Positions 20,817-54,688 of a DNA stretch of 64,000 nucleotides are shown one piece after another. The notes below the pieces were generated by a model. It saw only the letters and a program-made list of their open reading frames with translations. It did no database searches and had not been told where the DNA came from. Position numbers and translations under genes: made by a program. The stretch lies in the UHGV virus genome UHGV-1373641; one strand, given 5' to 3'. The DNA comes from a virus. Each line of letters begins with the position of its first letter. Positions within the stretch are counted from its first letter, which is position 1.

Positions 20817-20851
20817 AATACCCGCCCTGCGGTAAAAATTTACTACTACGT

Positions 20852-20880
20852 CCTATACGACATATATTTTCCTTTGTCAA
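20852..20880 (-). promoter_or_regulatory. Sigma70-like promoter for the structural (late) operon
   Basis: Minus strand TTGACA (plus 20875..20880) - 17 nt - TATAGG (plus 20852..20857) upstream of the portal ATG. Confidence 0.35.
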
Positions 20881-20918
20881 GTAAAAAATTGACAAAATTG
20901 TAAAATATAGAAAATTAA

Positions 20919-20936
20919 GGGGCGTAAATACGCCCC
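20919..20936. terminator. Bidirectional intrinsic terminator hairpin between nucleotide-metabolism and structural blocks
   Basis: GGGGCG-TAAATA-CGCCCC perfect hairpin flanked by T-rich tracts on both strands. Confidence 0.5.
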
Positions 20937-21034
20937 GTTATTAGTTTTTATTTATATCAAAAATAATCAAGCATAGATTATGAAGTTGAAGTGTAACTGC
21001 TCTTTATAGAACACTAAAGACCTAAAATTGACCC

Positions 21035-22386: not shown

Positions 22387-22830
22387 CTACAACTTTACGA
22401 TTCTTTGGTTATTCGATGCCAACTTTATTCCGAATAAAGGTTCTATATAAGATGGTTTTGTTTTATCATACATTCCGAGCTTGGCATATTTTAACAGGTG
22501 GTGAAGCGGCTTAGGAATTTTTTCATATCTTGTCCATAACCAAATCTCCTGAAAATACGCATTCAATCGAATGATAAAGTTTTGAAGAGAAATCAAATTC
22601 TGATCAAGAGGTTCTCCTCCCAAAATCCAAACTTTTTTTACTAATAGTTCACTGTCTTTAAAAAGTCCAGAATTTTCTTGAGTTTTAAGCCATTCCTGAT
22701 ACGGAATCCCCTGATTGAATTCCCAAAGTTCTTTGTTATGACATCCCTCACAATGAGGTGCCTTACATCCGGAAAGATATATTTCCAGTGCCCGATGAGC
22801 CAGATTAAATTCTGTGCCCGCTACTCGCAT
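22387..22830 (-). CDS. nrdG: Anaerobic ribonucleotide reductase activating protein (radical SAM)
   Basis: Cys cluster CKAPHCEGCHNKE and GGEPL motif typical of NrdG activases. Overlaps the nrdD stop. Confidence 0.75.
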   Translation of the reverse strand: MRVAGTEFNLAHRALEIYLSGCKAPHCEGCHNKELWEFNQGIPYQEWLKTQENSGLFKDSELLVKKVWILGGEPLDQNLISLQNFIIRLNAYFQEIWLWTRYEKIPKPLHHLLKYAKLGMYDKTKPSYIEPLFGIKLASNNQRIVKL

Positions 22831-25766
22831 CTCATTTCTTCCTTACCATAGAACTGGCGATTGGGACGGTCTTTTTCACGGCGAACCTTATTCCAATTTT
22901 TTACATTAGTAAAGAATCCGACAACACGGGTAATCTCCTCAGACCATTCTTTGCCACAGGTAGGGCATCTGTCGGAACCCACCCAAGTATGGTTATCATC
23001 GCAGATCCGAAGAAGATAGTTTACTGCCCAATAAACAACGCCAGACTTTGCGGCATAGATGATAAGGTCTTCGATGTTCTTCGTGTCCTCAATTCTCTCA
23101 CCAACATTGACATGGCAAATCGCTCCACCCGAAAACAATCCATCGAATTTTCCTTGGAGTCTAATACGGTCGAGCATATTGGCTTTAGCGATAAGCGGAA
23201 TAAACTGATTCGAATAGAAGGATACTCCACAATCGTAACCAAGGACTTTATCTTTCTTCGCGAGTTTCACAGAGGATGACTCGGCAGGAACCTGTTCACA
23301 ATTATGAGGAGCTTGATACAATTCTTGAGCTTCATCAATCCAAAGGTTAATCTGTTCAAGAGTCCGCATCACAAGATCTTGCCCATCCTCATCCAAAATG
23401 TCCTTTCCGAGGATGCTCACTGCTTCATAGAGTCCGGTGACTCCAAAAGTCGAATATTGTTTAGTAATATCCATGTATCCATGCGTGTACAAAGGCGCTG
23501 CGCCAAGGTCAATTCGACGCTGTACAATCTTGCGTTTAGCGTTATTGATTTTCGCTGCGGTAAAAAACGCATCCCTAAGCTTATCAATAAACACGCCCTC
23601 ATCTCCCCCCGACTGCATTGCAAGGCGAGGGAAGTTTGCCGTCACAACACCAAGAGATCCAATTTTTGTGCTTCCGGAGCCGAAAGAATTAAAATACTCA
23701 TTTTTCCTGTCCGAGCGCAAACGACAGTTATGGGTGATTACGCCATTGGGCAAAGTGAAGTAAGGTTCTTCCGGATTCTGCATTTCAAAACAATATACGT
23801 ATTCTTCGTCGTAAGGAACTTCTTCGACACTTTCTACCTTAAAATACACAGAGTTGTTTCTTACCTTGTATACGCCCGGATGCTCACGACGATTCTTCAA
23901 ATCATACCAACGGATACAATATAGGGGGTAATTCCGAGAATAGTTCTTTCCGCGAATCTCCACCAACTCATCAGTGCGATCCGACAGGTCGATGTTGCTA
24001 ACCATACCCAGAGAAGTAAGGATGGCTTCTCCAGTTTCGATAAGCTCTTTAGACGTAGAATAAATACGATTGCTATTTCCTCCGTCAGTTGCATACCATC
24101 CGGCGATGATGCCCTTGCGGAACTCTGTGGATTGAAGAAGAATGTTCATATCAAACGACTTCTCTTCCGCATAAGAACCTTTAACATACTTCCCAATAAT
24201 ATCATATATCGCCTTAGAATAAATTTTGGCAAACACAACTTTGTTCCGGGACGGATTAATATGGAAGTCCTCTTCAATACCCCAATCTTTTGCGGCTTGA
24301 ATAAGCGTGTCGATACAACCGCGCTTCGCTTCACTCAAAGAAAAAGTCACATCGTAACTTTCGACGCCCTCTCTTGCATATCGGCTTCCATCGCCAGCAT
24401 AGGCCCCAATGAGATACCCCTGAGCATAGGTAAGGTGCTCATCTTTTTCATTATAAGAGTTAAGCTCCCTCATACTGAATCCGATATAATCATCAGTAGT
24501 CAAATCAACAGTAGTTTTATCCCCAGAGAGAGTATAGTTGATATGATTATCCGTTACAACAAATTCCTTCTTATTAGAAAGAACGACCTTATACATCTTA
24601 TGGCCCAAAACAGGAAGCATCACGGGCTTTGCCTTGACCCAAGACCCATTGTGGAATACAGCGAAGTTCTTCCTATAAAGATCATAGTTGGATGATTTTA
24701 CGATATCACGAATATCCGCAAGAACCACGCCATTACTGGATTTCGTAAGGACTTTCTGCCCTCCAGAAAAACAGCATGAACTCAAAGTTGACATTTTGCC
24801 ATTATACATATTGATAAATCCGAACTCTTTGTTCTTCTCAGCAATGAACTTTACAAAGTCCTTATCTACGATATTTCGGTCGTCATCAATAGAAAAACAA
24901 GCTGTCGTTACGGGAAACGTAAGAGGCGTTCTCCGCATCTCTTCATTCATGGCGTCGAGGAAAAGCCCCTGCAACTCATGAACAGTTTCAGGATTAGCGG
25001 CTTTTCCGTCCATCATGTAATCAGGACAGAGGGATTCAAGGAAATTACGGTCGAATACAGAAAGATTGGAAAATGGGCTTTGATTTCCCCGGAATTCCCA
25101 ATTCACCGTATAAATAAAATTGATAAGTTTTTCCTTTACATATGTTTTATAATCATCAACTTTAATCCGACCATCGTATCCGATCTTTTTCATTTTTTCT
25201 ACGAAAAGAGATGCCACAATAAGAAAATCTGCAAATCCGGTAGCTCCCAAGGTTGAGTTTGCAGCAACAACCATAAACTGTTCTACTTGACGCACAAACG
25301 TCTCCAAAGATTTAGGAGCGCTCACACGAACTCGCTTAGATACGCCTTCCAAACCATTAAGAGCGATATCATAAGTAGAATAATTAAAACAATAGGGAAG
25401 GGCTACATCAGTGGAGTCGTTAACATAAAGATCACCACGAAGCACTTTTTCCACGACAGTATTAGCTTCAAGGAGCCCATAATCCTTTTTAATCTGTTTC
25501 CAGAGGAGGAAATAACTATTGTACTTTTTAATGGGCTTCGGCATTTCATGATTATACTCAATAGATGTCCGCGCACATACATTGGCATTAGAGTCTACGG
25601 AAACATCTGCCGTTGTAGTATCCGTATTAAAAAAATCTTTAGAAAACTTATTGATATCCATCTGATCGCCAATTCCATCCAAGGTCAAAAAGTCCCTGCC
25701 ATATTTAGCGATAAGATACATCATAAGGTCATAGAACTCTTGATCCCAAGTAATCTTAATATGCAT
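22821..25766 (-). CDS. nrdD: Anaerobic (class III) ribonucleoside-triphosphate reductase, interrupted by an intein
   Basis: N-terminal ATP-cone-like region. C-terminal CPTCGKEW zinc ribbon and TRVVGFF glycyl-radical region. 981 aa against ~630 expected. Intein junctions SSC/CFSGGQ... and ...VITHN/CRLRSD. Confidence 0.85.
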   Translation of the reverse strand: MHIKITWDQEFYDLMMYLIAKYGRDFLTLDGIGDQMDINKFSKDFFNTDTTTADVSVDSNANVCARTSIEYNHEMPKPIKKYNSYFLLWKQIKKDYGLLEANTVVEKVLRGDLYVNDSTDVALPYCFNYSTYDIALNGLEGVSKRVRVSAPKSLETFVRQVEQFMVVAANSTLGATGFADFLIVASLFVEKMKKIGYDGRIKVDDYKTYVKEKLINFIYTVNWEFRGNQSPFSNLSVFDRNFLESLCPDYMMDGKAANPETVHELQGLFLDAMNEEMRRTPLTFPVTTACFSIDDDRNIVDKDFVKFIAEKNKEFGFINMYNGKMSTLSSCCFSGGQKVLTKSSNGVVLADIRDIVKSSNYDLYRKNFAVFHNGSWVKAKPVMLPVLGHKMYKVVLSNKKEFVVTDNHINYTLSGDKTTVDLTTDDYIGFSMRELNSYNEKDEHLTYAQGYLIGAYAGDGSRYAREGVESYDVTFSLSEAKRGCIDTLIQAAKDWGIEEDFHINPSRNKVVFAKIYSKAIYDIIGKYVKGSYAEEKSFDMNILLQSTEFRKGIIAGWYATDGGNSNRIYSTSKELIETGEAILTSLGMVSNIDLSDRTDELVEIRGKNYSRNYPLYCIRWYDLKNRREHPGVYKVRNNSVYFKVESVEEVPYDEEYVYCFEMQNPEEPYFTLPNGVITHNCRLRSDRKNEYFNSFGSGSTKIGSLGVVTANFPRLAMQSGGDEGVFIDKLRDAFFTAAKINNAKRKIVQRRIDLGAAPLYTHGYMDITKQYSTFGVTGLYEAVSILGKDILDEDGQDLVMRTLEQINLWIDEAQELYQAPHNCEQVPAESSSVKLAKKDKVLGYDCGVSFYSNQFIPLIAKANMLDRIRLQGKFDGLFSGGAICHVNVGERIEDTKNIEDLIIYAAKSGVVYWAVNYLLRICDDNHTWVGSDRCPTCGKEWSEEITRVVGFFTNVKNWNKVRREKDRPNRQFYGKEEMRCE
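23727..24773 (-). mobile_element. Intein with LAGLIDADG homing-endonuclease domain inside nrdD
   Basis: Block A CFSGGQKVLT. Two LAGLIDADG motifs (LIGAYAGDGS, IIAGWYATDGG). Terminal HN followed by +1 Cys. 349 aa; removing it restores the conserved SCCRL region. Confidence 0.75.
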
Positions 25767-26974: not shown

Positions 26975-27139
26975 CCACCCTACCTTAATATTTTTTATCT
27001 ACTATTTTCAATTCTTACGTTTTCCCAATATTCTCTTTCGGCTTTTTCACATTTTTGAAAACCCCAAATGAAAACAGAAACAAAAACCGCCAATAAAATC
27101 ATACCTTTGATTTTCATAATAACTATTTTCTTTCTGTGT

Positions 27140-27758: not shown

Positions 27759-28880
27759 TTATGCTTTAAAGTTATATACTGGCTTAATAGTGAACAAGGC
27801 TTCCACCGATTGAAGATTGTTACGAATCTCTGATCCATCCTTGTATGCCATAGGGCTTTCGTCAAGAGTAGAAGTATTTACGCAAGAAGAATAAATACCT
27901 TCCATTTCATTTTTAAAATCATTCATATCAAGACTGCGCTTGGCTTCACCTCTGCTTAGTCTACGTCCAGCTCCATGAGGTGCGGAATAGTTCCAATCTT
28001 CAAGCCCTTTACCAAAACCAAAAATAATACCGTCTCTCATATTCAAAGGGATCATAAGAGCCTGTTCTTTTTTAGCGGAAACGGCTCCCTTGCGCAGCAT
28101 GAACACATCATTGTCAATACGTTCTATATAGTTATGAACGGTTTCATAAACATCATCTTTCTTAATCCCAATGTGTAGCATGATATCGTTAATGATCGCC
28201 TCACGATTCAAAGAGGCATAATATTTCATGATTTCCATATCATACATATATTCATCGAACATCTCCCCTGAAAGATACGCTAGATGTTTGGGGGTGCCCG
28301 GACATTCTTTAATAGCGACATTTTGATAATAAGTAGCTACTTCTTTTCCAATATTCCTAGAACCAGAATGTACGGTAAGGAAATAAGAAAAAGTACCATC
28401 GAAATTATCGGATTCCCCTATTTCAATAAAATGATTCCCTCCCCCCAAAGTCCCAATACTGTGCTCCGCACGAGCGATATTAACTTCATTACGACACGCA
28501 AGCATATTCAAATTGATGGCGCTAACCAATTCATGCTTGTCGTTACGAATATTAAATCCTGCGGGAATATGCTTTCGAATAATTCGATCAATTTCTTCAA
28601 AAAAGCTATTGTTAAGTTTATCGTCCAAAGTAAATTCACAGGAAAGTAATCCACAACCTATATCGACTCCGACAAGATTAGGAACGATTTTCTTGTTTTC
28701 GATAGTCATCGTCGTTCCAATAACGCATCCAGCGCCAGCATGTACATCTGGCATAATGCGAATCCTACTACCTTCGGTGAACTCTTGATTACACAATTCG
28801 ATAATTTGAGCCATAGCTGTCGGCTCAACATAATCCGTGAAAACCTTAGCTGTACTTACTGAGCCTTTTACTTCAAACAT
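27759..28880 (-). CDS. rtcB: RtcB family 3'-phosphate RNA ligase
   Basis: Motifs MPDVHAGAGCVIGTT, GGGNHFIE and HGAGR. 373 aa. Confidence 0.85.
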   Translation of the reverse strand: MFEVKGSVSTAKVFTDYVEPTAMAQIIELCNQEFTEGSRIRIMPDVHAGAGCVIGTTMTIENKKIVPNLVGVDIGCGLLSCEFTLDDKLNNSFFEEIDRIIRKHIPAGFNIRNDKHELVSAINLNMLACRNEVNIARAEHSIGTLGGGNHFIEIGESDNFDGTFSYFLTVHSGSRNIGKEVATYYQNVAIKECPGTPKHLAYLSGEMFDEYMYDMEIMKYYASLNREAIINDIMLHIGIKKDDVYETVHNYIERIDNDVFMLRKGAVSAKKEQALMIPLNMRDGIIFGFGKGLEDWNYSAPHGAGRRLSRGEAKRSLDMNDFKNEMEGIYSSCVNTSTLDESPMAYKDGSEIRNNLQSVEALFTIKPVYNFKA

Positions 28881-29527: not shown

Positions 29528-32458
29528 TTATTTTCTATAAAATTCTCCCCTCCATCCTTCGGCCTTTACTGGCAGACCTTCCGCCCATTGAGGAAGCTTG
29601 CACATGATATTTTCAAATTCCTCGACAGACCCAAACCCTTTAGGAACCTCAGCAATGATTTCATCGTGAACATGAAACACTACCGGATAGTTGGCTTCTT
29701 CGAGATTGAACATCGCATTCACCATCAGATCTCTACAGAAAGCTTGTGTAACATTTTCTGAAAGTATGAGATGGTTAAGCGGCCTTCTCACAAATTGTTT
29801 TTCTGGCGTCAAGGTCATCGCCGTAACAAGCTTCTTGAACGCTGGCTTTTCTGGAGTAGACCATGCCATCTCCACATCTTCAAGTTTAGGCTCGAAGTAG
29901 AAGAGGAACCTGCCACTAGGGAGCTTCATAAGGAGGAATCTCTTATAGTATTGGAATGATACTCCACGATAAGAATAAATTCCGCCCTTATTCGTCATAG
30001 CCATGACAGCAGCTTCAACGAGTTTGTGCCAAAGCTTAACCGTCATTGGGTGCCCGTCTCTCCATGCAGCAATAATCTTCTTTCCTTCCTCTTCATCAAT
30101 GCCCATTCTATCAGCTCCAAAGCGAAGGAACGCGCCATAACCACCTCCGTATCCACAGTTATGCACAATGCGTGGACCGCAGGATGTATGTATCATAAAC
30201 CTGCTTTTATCTCCACAATTCAAAAGATCATAAACTTTTTCTATTTTAGTATAACCATCTCTATTAGATAAAATGCTCCCAGTAAGAATAATTTCATCGC
30301 TATCATCTTTTTTGATAAACTTTAAAATCGCCATATTTATTTTATTATAGTCCTTAATAACGGCTTCACTCACTTTAATATTCAGATAATTTTGAGCTGT
30401 TGAATACTTAGAAAAAATCGTAGCTAAAAAGACGATAATGGAGCATACATATTTAACTTTATCTTCAAGACTCGTGTTCCTTAAGCTTTCACCCAAGTAT
30501 ACATAAACACCTTTTCTACTTTTAGAATCAACAAAGGATACATTAAAGTCATCTTCGTCAAAATCGGAAAGAATTACTTCAATTCCCATTTCAGCTATAG
30601 TTACTTTTACTGGGTATTTCTTCAAACTATAAATAATTTTATCTTGAACTTTTGAGATTTGATAACTAACCCAACTAGAGAATATTTGATATTGCTCGCT
30701 AGAATAAACTTTCCCATCTCCTAGCCATTTACACAATTCAATAGCTGCATCGGAGTCTATCCAAATATTTTCATCCATCAACCATTTTTGATCAGGCGTA
30801 GATTCTACTCCCAAAAAATTAACGATTTCTTTAATACCTTGGCAATATGCTCCATCTGTCAAACACCAGTTTTCTCCATCCCATACATAATCATCTTTAG
30901 TTATGTCGACGATTTTTTTTATTCCATAGCTCGTATAAACCATTGTATCCGCAGAGAAGCAAGCCAACGTAGCCGTCTTACCTACTTGACGCTGCTTCTT
31001 ATCCACATCTTCATATTTCACCCCATAGATAGTCGTAGCTGCAACTTTATACGGGTCGAGGCCATCCCTAAAACCTTGAAGAACATACTCTTCGCCAGCG
31101 AGATATGCCAATGCTCGGGCTTCAATCCCACTATAGTCGGCACAGATAAAATCGTATCCTTTTCTAGCGTGAATCATTGCGCGAAGGCAATCGGAGGCAA
31201 GGACTTTAGGGTCTTTCCAATACTGCTGGATAAGATCTAAATCCCCGCTAGCTGCAAGTTCGATATCCATTTCACTGATATCATAATTATCCAAAGGCTT
31301 GGAACCTTCGGGTATATTCATATTATTTGTTGAAGGTCTAGTCAAATTTTGCGGTTGAATAAGAGCACCAGCAAATCTTCCCGTAGAGGCTCCATGATAT
31401 ATCATCGTTCCATGCGCCCTGCCATCATAGCACGAAGTACAAAGCATGGTCTGATATTTTGCCGTAGAAGACATGGCAATAGTCTGACGAATCTCAAGGA
31501 ATCTACGAACATCGGAGGGGAGATCAGTCCGTTCAAGAAGGTCGGAGATAGCTTGCTTGCTTGCCGAATCAGTATCAACCCCACGAGATTGAAGCCATTC
31601 AATAATAGACTTGGAAGACTTCATGGTAGATACAGCACCATACGTAATCTCGGAAGCTTCCTCCGTCAAAATATCTTCTACTTTATTAACCATATCCATA
31701 ATTTTGACCGCGTGAAACCTGTCAATTCCTACTCCACGGTCATTGATCGTCTGGTCGAGCCGCCACACTTTAAGCTCCCGCTCAGGGATAGGAGGAAGCT
31801 CCATAAAAAGAACTTCTTCCGCAACCACGTCCTGTCGACAATATTCAACATATCGTTTAAACATTGGCTCGTCACAAGGATAGACAATATATTGATGGTA
31901 GTTTTTAATGGTAGGAATGCCACCTTTTGAAAGCACGGCATAGACGTACTCTTGAGTAGCCTTAGCCTTTTCGGGGTCTGGAAATGCGGAAAGTTCGGCT
32001 TTACGGAATTTCCTAGGCTTTGACATTTTCATCATCAGCTTATGCCCTTCATTATCCTTCTGAGGAGCGTCTTTTCGCCAAACCTTTACCGCTTGTTCCA
32101 GTTTACGGGGAAGGTTGCACATAAGGGCCTGAGACATCGTGCATCGAATTTTCTCTAATGGCAATGGCTTAAACCAGAGAGGCTCCATCTTGAACTTCCA
32201 AATGGCTCTTTCGAAAGGGGCGTTATGTGCTGCAATCTCTTCACAATTATTAATAATATCCTGCAATTCATCGTCGCTCAATTCAGTATCAAGAAAATGC
32301 CTATATGCCGGAGCTACCCATACACGAGCCTCCTGTCCACATATACGGACGGCAAGCATCATCACCTCAGTATCAGGGTGCGCAGCATATGCGTAAGCTC
32401 CACAGGTTTTAATATCTACAGGGGACCTCGTTTCAAAGTCAATTACGGATTTCATCAT
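29528..32458 (-). CDS. Family A DNA polymerase with N-terminal DnaQ-like 3'-5' exonuclease, interrupted by an intein
   Basis: Exo I IDFETRS. Motif A CADYSGIEARALAYLAGE. Motif B RQVGKTATLA / CGYGGGYG split by a 268-aa insert. C-terminal HVHDEI motif C. Confidence 0.85.
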   Translation of the reverse strand: MMKSVIDFETRSPVDIKTCGAYAYAAHPDTEVMMLAVRICGQEARVWVAPAYRHFLDTELSDDELQDIINNCEEIAAHNAPFERAIWKFKMEPLWFKPLPLEKIRCTMSQALMCNLPRKLEQAVKVWRKDAPQKDNEGHKLMMKMSKPRKFRKAELSAFPDPEKAKATQEYVYAVLSKGGIPTIKNYHQYIVYPCDEPMFKRYVEYCRQDVVAEEVLFMELPPIPERELKVWRLDQTINDRGVGIDRFHAVKIMDMVNKVEDILTEEASEITYGAVSTMKSSKSIIEWLQSRGVDTDSASKQAISDLLERTDLPSDVRRFLEIRQTIAMSSTAKYQTMLCTSCYDGRAHGTMIYHGASTGRFAGALIQPQNLTRPSTNNMNIPEGSKPLDNYDISEMDIELAASGDLDLIQQYWKDPKVLASDCLRAMIHARKGYDFICADYSGIEARALAYLAGEEYVLQGFRDGLDPYKVAATTIYGVKYEDVDKKQRQVGKTATLACFSADTMVYTSYGIKKIVDITKDDYVWDGENWCLTDGAYCQGIKEIVNFLGVESTPDQKWLMDENIWIDSDAAIELCKWLGDGKVYSSEQYQIFSSWVSYQISKVQDKIIYSLKKYPVKVTIAEMGIEVILSDFDEDDFNVSFVDSKSRKGVYVYLGESLRNTSLEDKVKYVCSIIVFLATIFSKYSTAQNYLNIKVSEAVIKDYNKINMAILKFIKKDDSDEIILTGSILSNRDGYTKIEKVYDLLNCGDKSRFMIHTSCGPRIVHNCGYGGGYGAFLRFGADRMGIDEEEGKKIIAAWRDGHPMTVKLWHKLVEAAVMAMTNKGGIYSYRGVSFQYYKRFLLMKLPSGRFLFYFEPKLEDVEMAWSTPEKPAFKKLVTAMTLTPEKQFVRRPLNHLILSENVTQAFCRDLMVNAMFNLEEANYPVVFHVHDEIIAEVPKGFGSVEEFENIMCKLPQWAEGLPVKAEGWRGEFYRK
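30158..30961 (-). mobile_element. Intein inside polymerase motif B
   Basis: Block A CFSADTMVYT. Terminal IVHN followed by Cys. Internal LCKWLGDG resembles a single degenerate LAGLIDADG motif. Excision restores KTATLACGYGGGYG. Confidence 0.7.
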
Positions 32459-53759: not shown

Positions 53760-53849
53760 TGGCGGACAAGGTAGGATTCGAACCCACGGACGCTCCTGCG
53801 CCAACGGTTTTCAAGACCGCCCCAATAAGCCTGACTCTGGCACCTGTCC
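53760..53849 (-). tRNA. tRNA-Ser (anticodon UGA), class II with long variable arm
   Basis: Cloverleaf folds. Anticodon arm CGGTCTTGAAAACCG. TTCGAAT T-loop. CCA encoded. Confidence 0.8.
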
Positions 53850-53864
53850 TGTTTTTAATTCTTC

Positions 53865-53941
53865 TGGCTGTGGGAGACGGGATTGAACCGCCAACACCTT
53901 GATTAACAGTCAAGTGTTCTACCAAACTGAACTATCCCACA
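53865..53941 (-). tRNA. tRNA-Asn (anticodon GUU)
   Basis: Cloverleaf folds. Anticodon loop CTGTTAA. CCA encoded. Confidence 0.8.
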
Positions 53942-53950
53942 ATATTTTTT

Positions 53951-54027
53951 GGTACTACCGATGGGATTCGAACCCAATACTGTAGGGTTTTTAAGACCCT
54001 TGCCTCTACCTGTTGGGCTACGATAGT
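53951..54027 (-). tRNA. tRNA with anticodon UAA (Leu by anticodon) but short class I variable loop
   Basis: Acceptor ACTATCG/CGGTAGT. Anticodon arm AGGGT-CTTAAAA-ACCCT. Variable loop only ~5-6 nt. CCA encoded. Confidence 0.6.
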
Positions 54028-54031
54028 ATGA

Positions 54032-54107
54032 TGGTAGACCCGATAGGACTCGAACCTATAACTTCCCGGTTATGAGCCGGATCTTCTGCCAATTGAAGTA
54101 CGAGTCC
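54032..54107 (-). tRNA. tRNA-Met or Ile2 (anticodon CAU)
   Basis: Cloverleaf folds. Anticodon loop CTCATAA. CCA encoded. Confidence 0.75.
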
Positions 54108-54244
54108 ATTAAAAATTTTGATTATGGGAGACGCAATAAAGGAGGAAATTGCGTCTCCCGATTCGAGGAGCAAACGTATGAATGAATTGATGGAAACCTT
54201 ATACTAAACTTAAATCAGAATGTCAAGAACTTTTTTAATAGTTT

Positions 54245-54511
54245 TTAAGGTCGTTCGATCATACTGGGAACAAGTGTTGCGGAATAAATGATTTTTTCTT
54301 CATCCGGGCCATCCTCGTTCTCAACGAAGGCTTCAAATTCGATCTTACTGACACTAAAAAGGACAGTAATAGCGTCAATCTTGTCGCCTTTCTTAAAATC
54401 GCCAATATCCATGTTCAAAGTGCAATCATAAAACACAAAGTCGAAAGTGTCAAGCTGATCCCAACCTTCACAAGAAAACATTCTTTCAAAGAAATCAGTG
54501 CTCGTGTCCAT
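54245..54511 (-). CDS. Small acidic hypothetical protein embedded in the tRNA cluster
   Basis: 88-aa ORF. Confidence 0.3.
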   Translation of the reverse strand: MDTSTDFFERMFSCEGWDQLDTFDFVFYDCTLNMDIGDFKKGDKIDAITVLFSVSKIEFEAFVENEDGPDEEKIIYSATLVPSMIERP

Positions 54512-54537
54512 CTATGGATCTCCTTTTTATAGATTTA

Positions 54538-54614
54538 TGGTGCGACCGATGGGGCTTGAACCCATAACTTGCCAATTAAAAGTCGGCTACTCTTGCCAAT
54601 TGAGTTACGGTCGC
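54538..54614 (-). tRNA. tRNA-Lys (anticodon UUU)
   Basis: Acceptor GCGACCG/CGGTCGC. Anticodon loop CTTTTAA. CCA encoded. Confidence 0.8.
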
Positions 54615-54619
54615 ATGGA

Positions 54620-54688
54620 GTGTGGGAAGCGGGATTGAACCGCCAACATATACCTTTGTATTGTTCTACCAAATTGAACTACCCCACA
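54620..54688 (-). ncRNA. tRNA-like element (Asn-tRNA-related acceptor, D and T arms) with the anticodon arm replaced by a 12-nt mini-hairpin; candidate Y-RNA-like tRNA mimic or tRNA pseudogene
   Basis: Acceptor TGTGGGG/TCCCACA. D arm GTTC-AATTTGGTA-GAAC. T arm GGCGG-TTCAATC-CCGCT. Anticodon region is ATACAAAGGTAT (4-bp stem, 4-nt loop). No encoded CCA. Lies 10 nt 3' of the Ro60-like gene on the same strand. Confidence 0.5.

What the first reader, a model, noticed from the sequence alone, without database searches (positions are those of the whole stretch)
23727..24773. LAGLIDADG homing-endonuclease intein inside nrdD at the conserved SCC|CRL active-site region
The 349-aa insert begins CFSGGQKVLT, contains two LAGLIDADG motifs and ends HN before Cys. 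Excision gives a ~632-aa class III reductase. The insertion is at a functionally critical site, as is usual for inteins.
Basis: seen in the sequence. Interest (0 to 1): 0.6.

Follow-up and report, generated by a model that had tools for sequence, protein, structure and literature searches.

The report
Mobile intein splitting phage anaerobic reductase
A gut phage's anaerobic ribonucleotide reductase gene is interrupted, between two essential cysteines, by a self-splicing protein element (an intein) carrying its own DNA-cutting enzyme; it is a real but ordinary example of a known kind, and sister phages that lack it show it has moved recently.

Summary
Window 23727..24773 (- strand) encodes a 349-aa in-frame insert, CFSGGQ...GVITHN|CRL, inside a 981-aa nrdD ORF (22821..25766). 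Removing it leaves a 632-aa protein that aligns end to end with Thermotoga maritima NrdD.

The insert is a LAGLIDADG intein:
- All splicing residues are present (Cys1, TxxH, His-Asn, Cys+1), as are two LAGLIDADG motifs with their acidic residues.
- The AlphaFold model (pLDDT 91.9) matches PI-SceI, PI-PfuI and VMA inteins, plus I-DmoI.
- Nine sister-phage loci carry a 632-aa allele lacking exactly these 1047 bp.
- 63 of the 83 extein differences from the closest intein-less allele lie within -247..+159 nt of the junction, which looks like a co-conversion tract.
- An identical intein with identical near flanks sits on a different C-extein background.

The intein lies between the two cysteines of the NrdDh SCCR motif. 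Both are essential in TmNrdD.

It is not new in kind. Clostridium phage c-st NrdD has a homologous intein at the same site. At least 96 IMG/VR contigs encode a relative, and all 90 N-terminal junctions I could read lie at that site.

One unusual feature is an invariant Cys at block F position 4, where standard inteins usually have Asp.

A second polymorphic intein-like insert sits in the DNA polymerase gene.

The parts
22821..25766 (-). nrdD precursor ORF, 981 aa plus stop, made of N-extein, intein and C-extein
   Evidence: Pfam NRDD E 9e-86 in two stretches
24774..25766 (-). N-extein, aa 1-331, ending ...MSTLSSC. It contains Y125/C126, the equivalents of Tm Y124/C125.
23727..24773 (-). Intein, 349 aa, 1047 bp: Hint splicing domain with a LAGLIDADG endonuclease inserted in it
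   Evidence: absent as an exact 1047-bp block from nine intein-less sister-phage loci, L002-L004 and L008-L013
22821..23726 (-). C-extein, 301 aa plus stop, starting CRLRSD. It contains the glycyl-radical Gly (precursor G950, codon 22917..22919) and the CxxC zinc site.
24735..24773 (-). Splicing block A, CFSGGQKVLTKSS. Cys1 is present in 46/46 family members.
24528..24578 (-). Splicing block B, ...VVTDNHINYT. Thr74 is T or S in 46/46 and His77 is invariant in 46/46. Position B:12 is Asn79, not Trp.
23919..24449 (-). LAGLIDADG homing-endonuclease domain, approximately intein aa 109-285
   Evidence: Pfam LAGLIDADG_3 at 25.7 bits; I-DmoI structural matches with TMt 0.62-0.69
24381..24428 (-). LAGLIDADG motif 1, YAQGYLIGAYAGDGSR, with catalytic Asp128
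   Evidence: Asp in 37/46 relatives
24066..24122 (-). LAGLIDADG motif 2, FRKGIIAGWYATDGGNSNR, with catalytic Asp230
   Evidence: Asp in 42/46 relatives
23748..23801 (-). Splicing block F, YVYCFEMQNPEEPYFTLP. Cys328 (codon 23790..23792) occupies position F:4 and is invariant in the family.
   Evidence: (aligns with Cys107 of the engineered gp41-1_WCT intein, 6riz)
23727..23747 (-). Splicing block G, NGVITHN, with Thr347, His348 and Asn349, followed by Cys+1 (codon 23724..23726)
23568..25020 (-). Probable co-conversion tract: the intein plus 247 nt of N-extein and 159 nt of C-extein. These flanks hold 63 of the 83 extein differences from the closest intein-less allele.
22387..22830 (-). nrdG activase (147 aa), overlapping the end of nrdD by 10 nt. 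It is the functional partner of the spliced NrdD.
   Evidence: phrog_626; Fer4_12

Best explanation
The insert is a canonical (class 1-type) intein carrying a monomeric two-motif LAGLIDADG homing endonuclease. It lies in the nrdD gene of a tailed phage whose sister genomes are about 86-92 kb and come at least partly from the human gut. The gene is translated as a 981-aa precursor. The proposed splicing steps are inferred from conserved residues. Cys1 forms a thioester at the N-terminal junction. Cys+1, the second Cys of the SCCR motif, attacks it. Asn349 cyclises with help from His348 and releases the intein. The exteins are then joined into a 632-aa NrdDh-type anaerobic ribonucleotide reductase with an intact SCCR motif, which NrdG activates. 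The released intein, or its endonuclease domain, is inferred to cut intein-less nrdD alleles at the SSC|CRL coding sequence during co-infection. Repair from the intein-bearing copy then copies the intein and a few hundred bases of flanking extein into the cut genome (homing). The insertion, the fold, the conserved residues, the empty-site alleles and the flank mosaic are shown here. Splicing and DNA cleavage are inferred.
For: Anatomy: coordinates and junctions are exact. Cys1, Thr74/His77, His348-Asn349 and Cys+1 are present, and are invariant or nearly so across 46 relatives. Both LAGLIDADG Asp residues are present.

Profiles: LAGLIDADG_3 and TIGR01445 score above their cut-offs.

Fold: the AF2 model has pLDDT 91.9 and pTM 0.91. 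The top PDB matches are all intein homing endonucleases, with I-DmoI matching the nuclease domain.

Extein: the spliced product is contiguous with TmNrdD at E 1e-111 and scores 516.9 bits on NF006127 over model positions 2-629 of 631, just under that model's curated cut-off of 545.

Empty sites: twelve loci from the same phage species carry 632-aa nrdD, and in nine of them the gap was measured as exactly 1047 bp.

Mobility: 63 of 83 extein mismatches to the L002-type allele lie within -247..+159 nt of the junction (binomial 8e-26). The distal 742 nt of the N-extein has 1 mismatch. L005 carries an identical intein (0/1047 nt differences) and identical near flanks, but a different C-extein haplotype. 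Seven synonymous differences at -4..+15 separate intein-bearing alleles from all twelve intein-less ones. A divergent intein-bearing phage, L006, has the intein+ base at the five of those positions that fall in the three codons after Cys+1 (CGT TTG CGC); it differs at -4 and +15.

Family: all 90 N-terminal junctions I could read in 94 IMG/VR and GTDB loci lie at this CC site (89 read xC|CF; L030 reads MC|PL), and the C-terminal junctions read HN|CR[L/V/M]. Phage c-st NrdD has a homologue at the same site (PMC3653736). Mini-inteins and copies with a degenerate nuclease occur at the same site, the usual homing cycle.

Selection: versus L006, dN is 0.16 in the Hint part and 0.34 in the nuclease part, with dS saturated.
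Against: No experiment shows splicing or cleavage. Pfam Intein_splicing scores 30.7 bits, below its gathering cut-off of 35.8. Neither phmmer nor a family profile found a significant full-length sequence match in the PDB. Block F is atypical, with Cys rather than Asp at F:4 and Pro/Tyr where His is common. These phages are generally mosaic: other divergent blocks occur in nrdD away from the intein, so ordinary recombination could contribute to the flank pattern. The tract's donor was not identified.
Confidence: 0.9

Rival explanations
1. The intein splices, but its endonuclease is no longer active. It would then be a vertically inherited passenger, and the presence/absence pattern and flank mosaic would come from ordinary homologous recombination between co-infecting phages, not endonuclease-driven homing.
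For: This phage population is mosaic in many places. Examples are the divergent blocks in the nrdD C-extein unrelated to the intein and the presence/absence of other genes and of PolA inserts. dN in the nuclease domain (0.34) is twice that in the Hint domain (0.16). Some relatives have lost the catalytic Asp or the whole nuclease.
Against: In this copy both catalytic Asp residues and the conserved motif glycines are intact. The divergent tract is centred on the insertion site and travels with the intein onto two different backgrounds. The 0/1047 nt identity between two intein copies on different backgrounds points to very recent transfer.
Confidence: 0.2
2. The insert is a dead, non-splicing insertion and this nrdD is a pseudogene. 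The phage would rely on host RNR.
For: Splicing has not been tested. Block F is non-standard, and Pfam Intein_splicing scores below its gathering threshold.
Against: The reading frame is open across 981 codons, and nrdG follows with an overlapping start. All splice-junction residues are conserved across 46 diverged relatives. Extein dN versus L006 is only 0.049, i.e. strong purifying selection on the host protein. The intein-bearing allele cluster has 36 sequences from many near-complete genomes.
Confidence: 0.04
3. The insert is a normal lineage-specific domain of NrdD, or a group I intron with an in-frame ORF, and not an intein.
For: nrdD genes of other phages are often interrupted by group I introns (T4 and Jug phages; PMC1865063, PMC12880540).
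Against: Rfam finds no intron or other RNA family in nrdD. The insert is in frame, with intein termini, a Hint plus LAGLIDADG fold, and a contiguous extein alignment. Alleles 98-99% identical in amino acids lack it.
Confidence: 0.01

Closest known systems
NrdD intein of Clostridium botulinum phages c-st (CST076) and D-1873. Dwivedi et al. 2013 (PMC3653736) call it a 'putative intein'. From my memory it is listed in InBase as Cbp-C-St RNR, which I did not verify here.
   Same: It has the same insertion site (ASC|C...ITHN|CRL) and the same architecture. The two precursors are 36% identical overall, and the intein segment aligns along its length apart from one 16-residue gap; the c-st intein is about 50% identical to the window intein. 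The host enzyme is the same NrdDh subclass, with nrdG adjacent and a dUTPase nearby.
   Different: The phage and host are different (a gut siphovirus-like phage versus a Clostridium myovirus). The c-st copy lacks about 16 residues near intein aa 280-296. Here the population also supplies empty-site alleles and a co-conversion tract, which I did not find described for c-st in the text I read.
PI-SceI, PI-PfuI, PI-TkoII and the Tli/Pho VMA inteins (intein-encoded LAGLIDADG homing endonucleases with solved structures)
   Same: The predicted fold matches: a Hint domain with an inserted two-motif LAGLIDADG nuclease (Foldseek E 4e-14 to 1e-9, TMq 0.6-0.7). The splicing chemistry is Cys1 ... His-Asn / Cys+1.
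   Different: Sequence identity is only 12-15%, with no significant sequence-level match. This intein is smaller (349 aa versus 454-537 aa for the full-length PI-SceI, PI-PfuI and PI-TkoII). Block F:4 is Cys.
gp41-1 intein (class 1 mini-intein from a cyanophage-like metagenomic sequence; PDB 6qaz)
   Same: It is the best sequence-level match of the family profile, in blocks B and G (..EEHLFPT.. and ..ILTHN; E 0.004). It shares the Thr-His-Asn C-terminus.
   Different: gp41-1 has Asp at F:4 and no endonuclease. The match is short.
Class 3 (WCT) inteins, e.g. the mycobacteriophage Bethlehem DnaB and Msm/Mch DnaBi1 inteins
   Same: They share Cys at block F:4 and Thr at block G:5, and they are associated with phages.
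   Different: Class 3 inteins are defined as lacking a residue-1 nucleophile and as having Trp at B:12 (PMC2807308), although three of the 37 WCT-triplet inteins in that paper do begin with Ser or Cys. This family has an invariant Cys1, Asn/Phe/His at B:12 and Cys at +1. It is not a member.

Membership tests
Intein (class 1, standard) | In-frame insertion that is absent from orthologues, whose removal restores a contiguous host protein | tested here: met
   The extein aligns over residues 2-626 with TmNrdD without a gap at the junction. 632-aa alleles of the same phage species lack exactly 1047 bp.
Intein (class 1, standard) | Nucleophile at intein residue 1 (Cys or Ser) | tested here: met
   Cys1, invariant in 46/46 relatives
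Intein (class 1, standard) | Block B Thr-x-x-His | tested here: met
   T74-D-N-H77. His is invariant in 46/46; Thr/Ser in 46/46.
Intein (class 1, standard) | C-terminal His-Asn followed by Cys, Ser or Thr at +1 | tested here: met
   H348-N349 | C. Asn is present in 46/46 and +1 Cys in 45/45. 93 of the 94 C-terminal junctions translated in other loci read HN|CR.
Intein (class 1, standard) | Hint (Hedgehog/intein) fold | tested here: met
   This rests on a predicted structure only. The model has pLDDT 91.9 and its best PDB matches are intein structures.
Intein (class 1, standard) | Curated profile thresholds | tested here: inconclusive
   TIGR01445 intein_Nterm scores 27.4 against a cut-off of 24.5. 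Pfam Intein_splicing scores 30.7 against a cut-off of 35.8, E 3e-7.
Intein (class 1, standard) | Autocatalytic protein splicing that yields ligated exteins and free intein | not testable with these tools
   This needs expression followed by Western blot or mass spectrometry.
LAGLIDADG homing endonuclease (monomeric, two-motif) | Two LAGLIDADG helices, each ending in a catalytic acidic residue | tested here: met
   YLIGAYAGD128GS and GIIAGWYATD230GG
LAGLIDADG homing endonuclease (monomeric, two-motif) | Profile and fold match | tested here: met
   Pfam LAGLIDADG_3 scores 25.7 against 22.5. I-DmoI structures match at E about 1e-8 with TMt 0.62-0.69.
LAGLIDADG homing endonuclease (monomeric, two-motif) | Site-specific cleavage of the element-free allele, and homing | not testable with these tools
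   The evidence is indirect only: a divergent tract centred on the site, an identical intein on two backgrounds, and junction-proximal synonymous differences specific to intein-bearing alleles.
Class 3 (WCT) intein | No Cys, Ser or Thr nucleophile at residue 1 | tested here: not met
   Cys1 is invariant.
Class 3 (WCT) intein | Trp at block B position 12 | tested here: not met
   The position is Asn79; the family has N, F or H there. The register was fixed by alignment to gp41-1 and gp41-1_WCT.
Class 3 (WCT) intein | Cys at block F:4 and Thr at block G:5 | tested here: met
   Cys328 is present in 46/46 and Thr347 in 45/46. Cys328 aligns with the engineered Cys107 of 6riz.
Class III RNR catalytic subunit, NrdDh subclass (host protein) | NrdD fold and profile, C-terminal glycyl-radical Gly, Cys-rich zinc site, the conserved Tyr-Cys (Tm Y124/C125), and the SCCR motif | tested here: met
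   Pfam NRDD scores E 6e-91. The NCBIfam equivalog NF006127 scores 516.9 bits, E 7e-155, over almost its full length but below its curated cut-off of 545. The alignment to 4COI shows G601 = Tm G621, Y125/C126 = Tm Y124/C125, and SSCCR = Tm 328-SCCR-331 (PMC4493059).
Class III RNR catalytic subunit, NrdDh subclass (host protein) | Adjacent NrdG activase | tested here: met
   ORF 22387..22830 matches phrog_626 and Fer4_12.

The most novel reading that the evidence does not exclude
The invariant Cys at block F:4 may be functional. It is present in 46/46 aligned relatives, and in each mini-intein at this site whose block F could be read, in place of the usual Asp. Together with Cys-1, Cys1 and Cys+1 it puts four thiols around the splicing centre. 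It could act as a redox switch, a disulfide trap that blocks splicing under oxidising conditions. Maturation of the oxygen-sensitive anaerobic reductase would then be coupled to anoxic, reducing conditions. Alternatively it could be a class-3-like relay nucleophile in an intein that still keeps Cys1, i.e. a mechanistic intermediate between class 1 and class 3.
Probability: 0.12. Interest if true: 0.7.

Novelty: new member of a known kind. Interest (0 to 1): 0.33.

Why it matters
For annotation, the gene should be read as an intein-containing nrdD. The public copy, DAY48998.1, is simply named 'anaerobic ribonucleoside triphosphate reductase'. The mature enzyme is 632 aa, not 981 aa.

Biologically, the locus gives a clean natural snapshot of intein homing in human-gut phages. 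Intein-bearing and empty alleles of one phage species coexist. A divergent flank tract is centred on the site. The same intein sits on two backgrounds.

The intein family (at least 96 viral contigs, all readable junctions at one site) is much broader than the single c-st example named in the literature I could search.

Two further points follow. The site lies between the two essential cysteines of the debated SCCR motif. The block F Cys is invariant. Together they make this a convenient system for testing redox-conditional splicing in an oxygen-sensitive enzyme. None of this changes what is known about inteins in kind.

Tried and rejected
- Megablast of 5 kb and 25 kb of the window against INPHARED phages gave no match. 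The phage is not in that collection at the nucleotide level.
- phmmer of the intein against PDB sequences gave no hit at E<=10. A family profile gave only short, weak matches: gp41-1 block B at E 0.004 and I-DmoI at E about 0.06. The fold comparison was needed instead.
- Class 3 (WCT) membership was considered because of Cys F:4 and Thr G:5. I rejected it because Cys1 is invariant and B:12 is not Trp.
- A group I intron or other RNA element in nrdD was excluded: the Rfam gathering search found only a tRNA cluster elsewhere.
- L006, a divergent intein-bearing phage, was tested as donor of the co-converted tract and rejected. Its intein is only 63% identical in amino acids. No donor was identified.
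- dN/dS could not be computed properly because dS is saturated. Only dN is reported.
- I could not measure distances between Cys328 and Cys1/Cys+1, because model coordinates are not exposed.
- For the PolA insert: the protein search found nothing, the IMG/VR scan found only same-species copies, and Pfam and NCBIfam gave no significant hit. The single-sequence AF2 model was unusable (pLDDT 37.7), so no fold search was run on it.
Full report
**1. The observation**

The window carries a 981-codon ORF on the minus strand at 22821..25766. Its product reads ...NGKMSTLSSC | CFSGGQKVLT ... TLPNGVITHN | CRLRSDRKNE... The stretch between the bars is precursor residues 332-680, which is window 23727..24773, 349 aa. 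These are exactly the coordinates of the finding. The two LAGLIDADG-type motifs are YLIGAYAGDGS and GIIAGWYATDGG.

**2. The host protein**

- The deduced 632-aa product matches Pfam NRDD as one stretch (E 6e-91). The precursor matches it as two stretches.
- It matches the NCBIfam anaerobic RNR model NF006127 over almost its full length (516.9 bits, E 7e-155), a little below that model's curated cut-off of 545.
- It aligns over residues 2-626 with Thermotoga maritima NrdD (4COI/4U3E, E about 1e-111), with no gap at the junction. SSCCRL pairs with Tm 327-ASCCRL-332.
- The same alignment pairs extein G601 with the Tm glycyl-radical G621, Y125/C126 with Tm Y124/C125, and the CxxC zinc site.
- A 147-aa NrdG activase follows with a 10-nt overlap (22387..22830).

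The enzyme therefore belongs to the SCCR-bearing NrdDh subclass of Aurelius et al. (PMC4493059). The intein sits between the two cysteines of that motif. In TmNrdD, C329A and C330A are both inactive. The second Cys is the one that sequence alignment pairs with the T4 radical Cys290. In the Tm crystal structure, however, the motif lies in a disordered loop away from the substrate, and its exact role is debated. 'Functionally critical site' is justified. 'Active-site' is probable but not settled for this subclass.

**3. The insert**

Profile searches:
- LAGLIDADG_3 scores 25.7 bits against a cut-off of 22.5.
- TIGR01445 (intein N-terminal splicing region) scores 27.4 against 24.5.
- Pfam Intein_splicing scores 30.7 bits (E 3e-7), below its cut-off of 35.8.

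Structure: an alignment of 46 relatives gave an AlphaFold2 model with mean pLDDT 91.9 and pTM 0.91. Its best PDB matches by Foldseek are all intein homing endonucleases: Tli and Pho VMA inteins, PI-PfuI, PI-TkoII and PI-SceI (E 4e-14 to 1e-9, TMq 0.6-0.7). They are followed by I-DmoI for the nuclease domain (TMt 0.62-0.69).

Conservation across the 46 relatives:

| Position | Count |
|---|---|
| Cys1 | 46/46 |
| Thr74 (Thr or Ser) | 46/46 |
| His77 | 46/46 |
| His348 | 45/46 |
| Asn349 | 46/46 |
| Cys+1 | 45/45 |
| Cys-1 | 45/45 |
| Asp128 (LAGLIDADG 1) | 37/46 |
| Asp230 (LAGLIDADG 2) | 42/46 |

Both catalytic Asp residues are present in the window copy. Against a divergent intein-bearing relative (L006), dN is 0.16 in the Hint part, 0.34 in the nuclease part and 0.049 in the extein. 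dS is saturated. This is consistent with purifying selection on all parts, weakest on the nuclease.

**4. Empty-site alleles and mobility**

A search with the spliced sequence returned two kinds of allele:
- about twenty clusters of 632-aa proteins, 98-99% identical, on contigs up to 88 kb;
- a 36-member cluster of 981-aa intein-bearing proteins on contigs of about 86-92 kb.

The encoding contigs have the same gene order as the window and 95-98% nucleotide identity to it (measured for L002-L005). At least one is labelled human gut metagenome. In the nine intein-less loci aligned (L002-L004, L008-L013), the gene differs from the window by one block of exactly 1047 bp.

The 83 remaining extein differences from the closest allele (L002-L004) are not spread evenly:
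- 63 lie within -247..+159 nt of the junction (binomial 8e-26).
- Only 1 lies in the distal 742 nt of the N-extein.
- Only 8 of the 83 change an amino acid.

Locus L005 has an identical intein (0/1047 differences) and identical near flanks. It carries the other common haplotype over C-extein nt ~180-780. The intein plus a few hundred flanking bases therefore sits on two backgrounds.

A third group of intein-less alleles (L014-L016) resembles the window in the flanks but not in the distal N-extein. This suggests the tract came from that kind of background.

Seven synonymous differences at -4, +6, +7, +9, +10, +12 and +15 separate the intein-bearing alleles from all twelve intein-less ones. The three codons after Cys+1 read CGT TTG CGC in intein-bearing alleles and CGG CTT AGA in intein-less ones. 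L006, whose intein is only 63% identical, shares those three codons but not the -4 and +15 differences.

This is what endonuclease-driven homing with co-conversion predicts. It does not prove cleavage, and these phages recombine freely elsewhere.

**5. The wider family**

Clostridium phage c-st NrdD (CST076, 978 aa) aligns along the whole precursor, with its own intein CFDGQQK...GIITHN|CRL at the same site. Dwivedi et al. already noted a 'putative intein' in the nrdD of c-st and D-1873 (PMC3653736).

Distribution:
- The protein search with the intein alone gave 86 clusters. Most that carry a Pfam annotation include NRDD, and all ten I read have NrdD flanks.
- A pattern scan found relatives on at least 96 IMG/VR contigs and in 14 GTDB species genomes, all but two labelled as MAGs.
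- All 90 N-terminal junctions I could translate lie at the same CC site: 89 read xC|CF, and L030 reads MC|PL, probably M|CPL. 93 of the 94 C-terminal junctions read HN|CR[L/V/M].

Many metagenomic proteins are fragments. That fits the report that Jug-phage nrdD genes are broken by group I introns and 'Intein_splicing' proteins (PMC12880540).

Within the NrdD clade closest to the window there are three insertion sites:
- PY|CFNYS, where +1 is the universally conserved Cys (Tm C125);
- GNQ|SPF;
- the present site, which also holds mini-inteins of 140-168 aa and copies with a degenerate nuclease (P0071; Asp128 replaced by Gly in some).

This is the usual cycle of invasion, decay and loss.

**6. 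One non-standard feature**

Block F reads YVYCFEM...EPYFTLP. The Cys (C328) is invariant in 46/46 relatives, and is also seen in each mini-intein at this site whose block F could be read. A family profile aligns it with Cys107 of the engineered gp41-1_WCT intein (6riz). That is position F:4, which is Asp in the wild-type gp41-1 and usually Asp in standard inteins (PMC2807308, PMC7664689).

With Thr at G:5, the family has the 'C' and 'T' of the class 3 WCT triplet. But Cys1 is invariant and B:12 is Asn/Phe/His, not Trp. It therefore fails the definition of class 3, and I file it as class 1-type.

F:4 Cys is the redox-sensitive catalytic residue in the class 3 DnaBi1 intein (PMC6195587). Four thiols (Cys-1, Cys1, Cys328, Cys+1) around the splice centre of an oxygen-sensitive enzyme make redox-conditional splicing an attractive idea. 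It is untested, and I could not measure distances in the model.

**7. Rivals**

- A normal NrdD domain is excluded by the contiguous alignment and the empty-site alleles.
- A group I intron is excluded by the open frame, the protein fold and the Rfam result.
- A dead insertion is unlikely, given conserved junction residues, strong constraint on the extein and the abundance of the allele.
- The realistic open question is whether the nuclease is active now. I put that at roughly 0.7-0.8, given the intact motifs and the site-centred tract.

**8. Context**

The window is a siphovirus-like phage. Its structural genes include a tail fibre J-like protein, tape measure, HK97-type capsid, protease and portal. 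The nucleotide and replication module holds a dNMP kinase-like gene, nrdG, nrdD, dUTPase, a ThyX-like gene, RtcB, family A DNA polymerase, SNF2 helicase and others. No nucleotide match exists in INPHARED. IMG/VR contig UViG_3300045988_125712 carries a 100% identical intein.

**9. Verdict**

The finding is right in observation and interpretation. It is a new member of a known intein allele family (the phage c-st NrdD intein), with good natural evidence of recent mobility and one unusual conserved residue.

Interest is modest (0.33). A specialist would not be surprised by an intein in a phage RNR at a catalytic motif. The population data and the F:4 Cys make it a useful test system.

Noticed in passing
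window 30158..30961 (- strand), inside the DNA polymerase A ORF 29528..32458: There is a second intein-like insert of 268 aa: ...GKTATLA|CFSADTMVYT...GPRIVHN|CGYGGGYG..., splitting the conserved K..YG polymerase motif. It is absent from the 707-aa PolA of sister phages L004, L006 and L014, and present in L003. No Pfam hit reaches E 0.01, and intein_Nterm scores only 15.1 bits. No LAGLIDADG motif is visible. Block B appears to read TPDQKW, with Gln where His is usual. Only same-species copies were found, and the single-sequence AF2 model was unusable.
   Followed up: partly
L002:4577-5761 and L015:2878-6968 (sister phages), corresponding to window ~31369..31380: In some sister phages the PolA gene is broken at another place by a ~1.2-kb insertion that carries a 240-246 aa ORF. 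The gene is then called as fragments of 454 + 240 + 370 aa or 452 + 638 + 246 aa. The window lacks this insertion. It is probably another mobile element (an intron or a free-standing endonuclease).
   Followed up: no
L008:1015-1770, L010, L011, L012, L013, L014 (sister phages); would lie at window ~26975..27139: A 251-aa ORF with faint SegE GIY-YIG / NUMOD3 hits lies between the ThyX-like gene and the 217-aa lysozyme-like gene in several sister phages. It looks like a free-standing homing endonuclease and is absent from the window. It is a third presence/absence mobile element in the same 10 kb.
   Followed up: no
Proteins P0116, P0118, P0123, P0127, P0147, P0149 and others (relatives of the window NrdD): Relatives carry inteins at two other NrdD sites. 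One is PY|CFNYS, where +1 is the universally conserved Cys equivalent to Tm C125; these inteins start with Ser and have Asp at F:4. The other is GNQ|SPF. Some proteins carry two inteins (P0132, P0136, P0147, P0152, P0153).
   Followed up: partly
Proteins P0146, P0147, P0152, P0136, P0153, P0132, P0071; P0011 and P0025/P0026: Mini-inteins of 140-168 aa occupy the same SC|CR site. Some full-length copies have lost a LAGLIDADG catalytic Asp (GDGS changed to GGGS) or most of the nuclease (P0071). These are decay stages of the same element.
   Followed up: partly
Proteins P0003 and P0011 (contigs of 80-92 kb): Several metagenomic homologues stop a few residues after the intein (...HNCRLxSxIxxLG*) even though the contig continues. 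This suggests a downstream group I intron or a recoded stop codon in those phages, as reported for Jug and crAss-like phages.
   Followed up: no
window 53760..54688 (- strand): There is a cluster of five or six tRNA genes (Ser-TGA, Asn-GTT, Leu-TAA, Met-CAT and Lys-TTT, plus a sixth weak Rfam hit at 54621..54688). An RtcB RNA ligase gene lies at 27759..28880, so the phage may carry a tRNA supply-and-repair set.
   Followed up: no
L003:13704-14207 and L013:6665-7168 (sister phages); would lie at window ~20817..21034: A 167-aa radical-SAM / Fer4_12 gene sits between the dNMP-kinase-like gene and the portal gene in some sister phages. It is absent from the window.
   Followed up: no
L030 (Candidatus Saccharibacteria MAG contig CAYTGH010000003.1): In one distant relative the N-terminal junction reads ...RSMC|PLAGD. 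The likely register is M|CPLAG with a single-Cys MCR motif, as in T4 MGCR. The intein family therefore also occurs in NrdD proteins without the CC pair.
   Followed up: no
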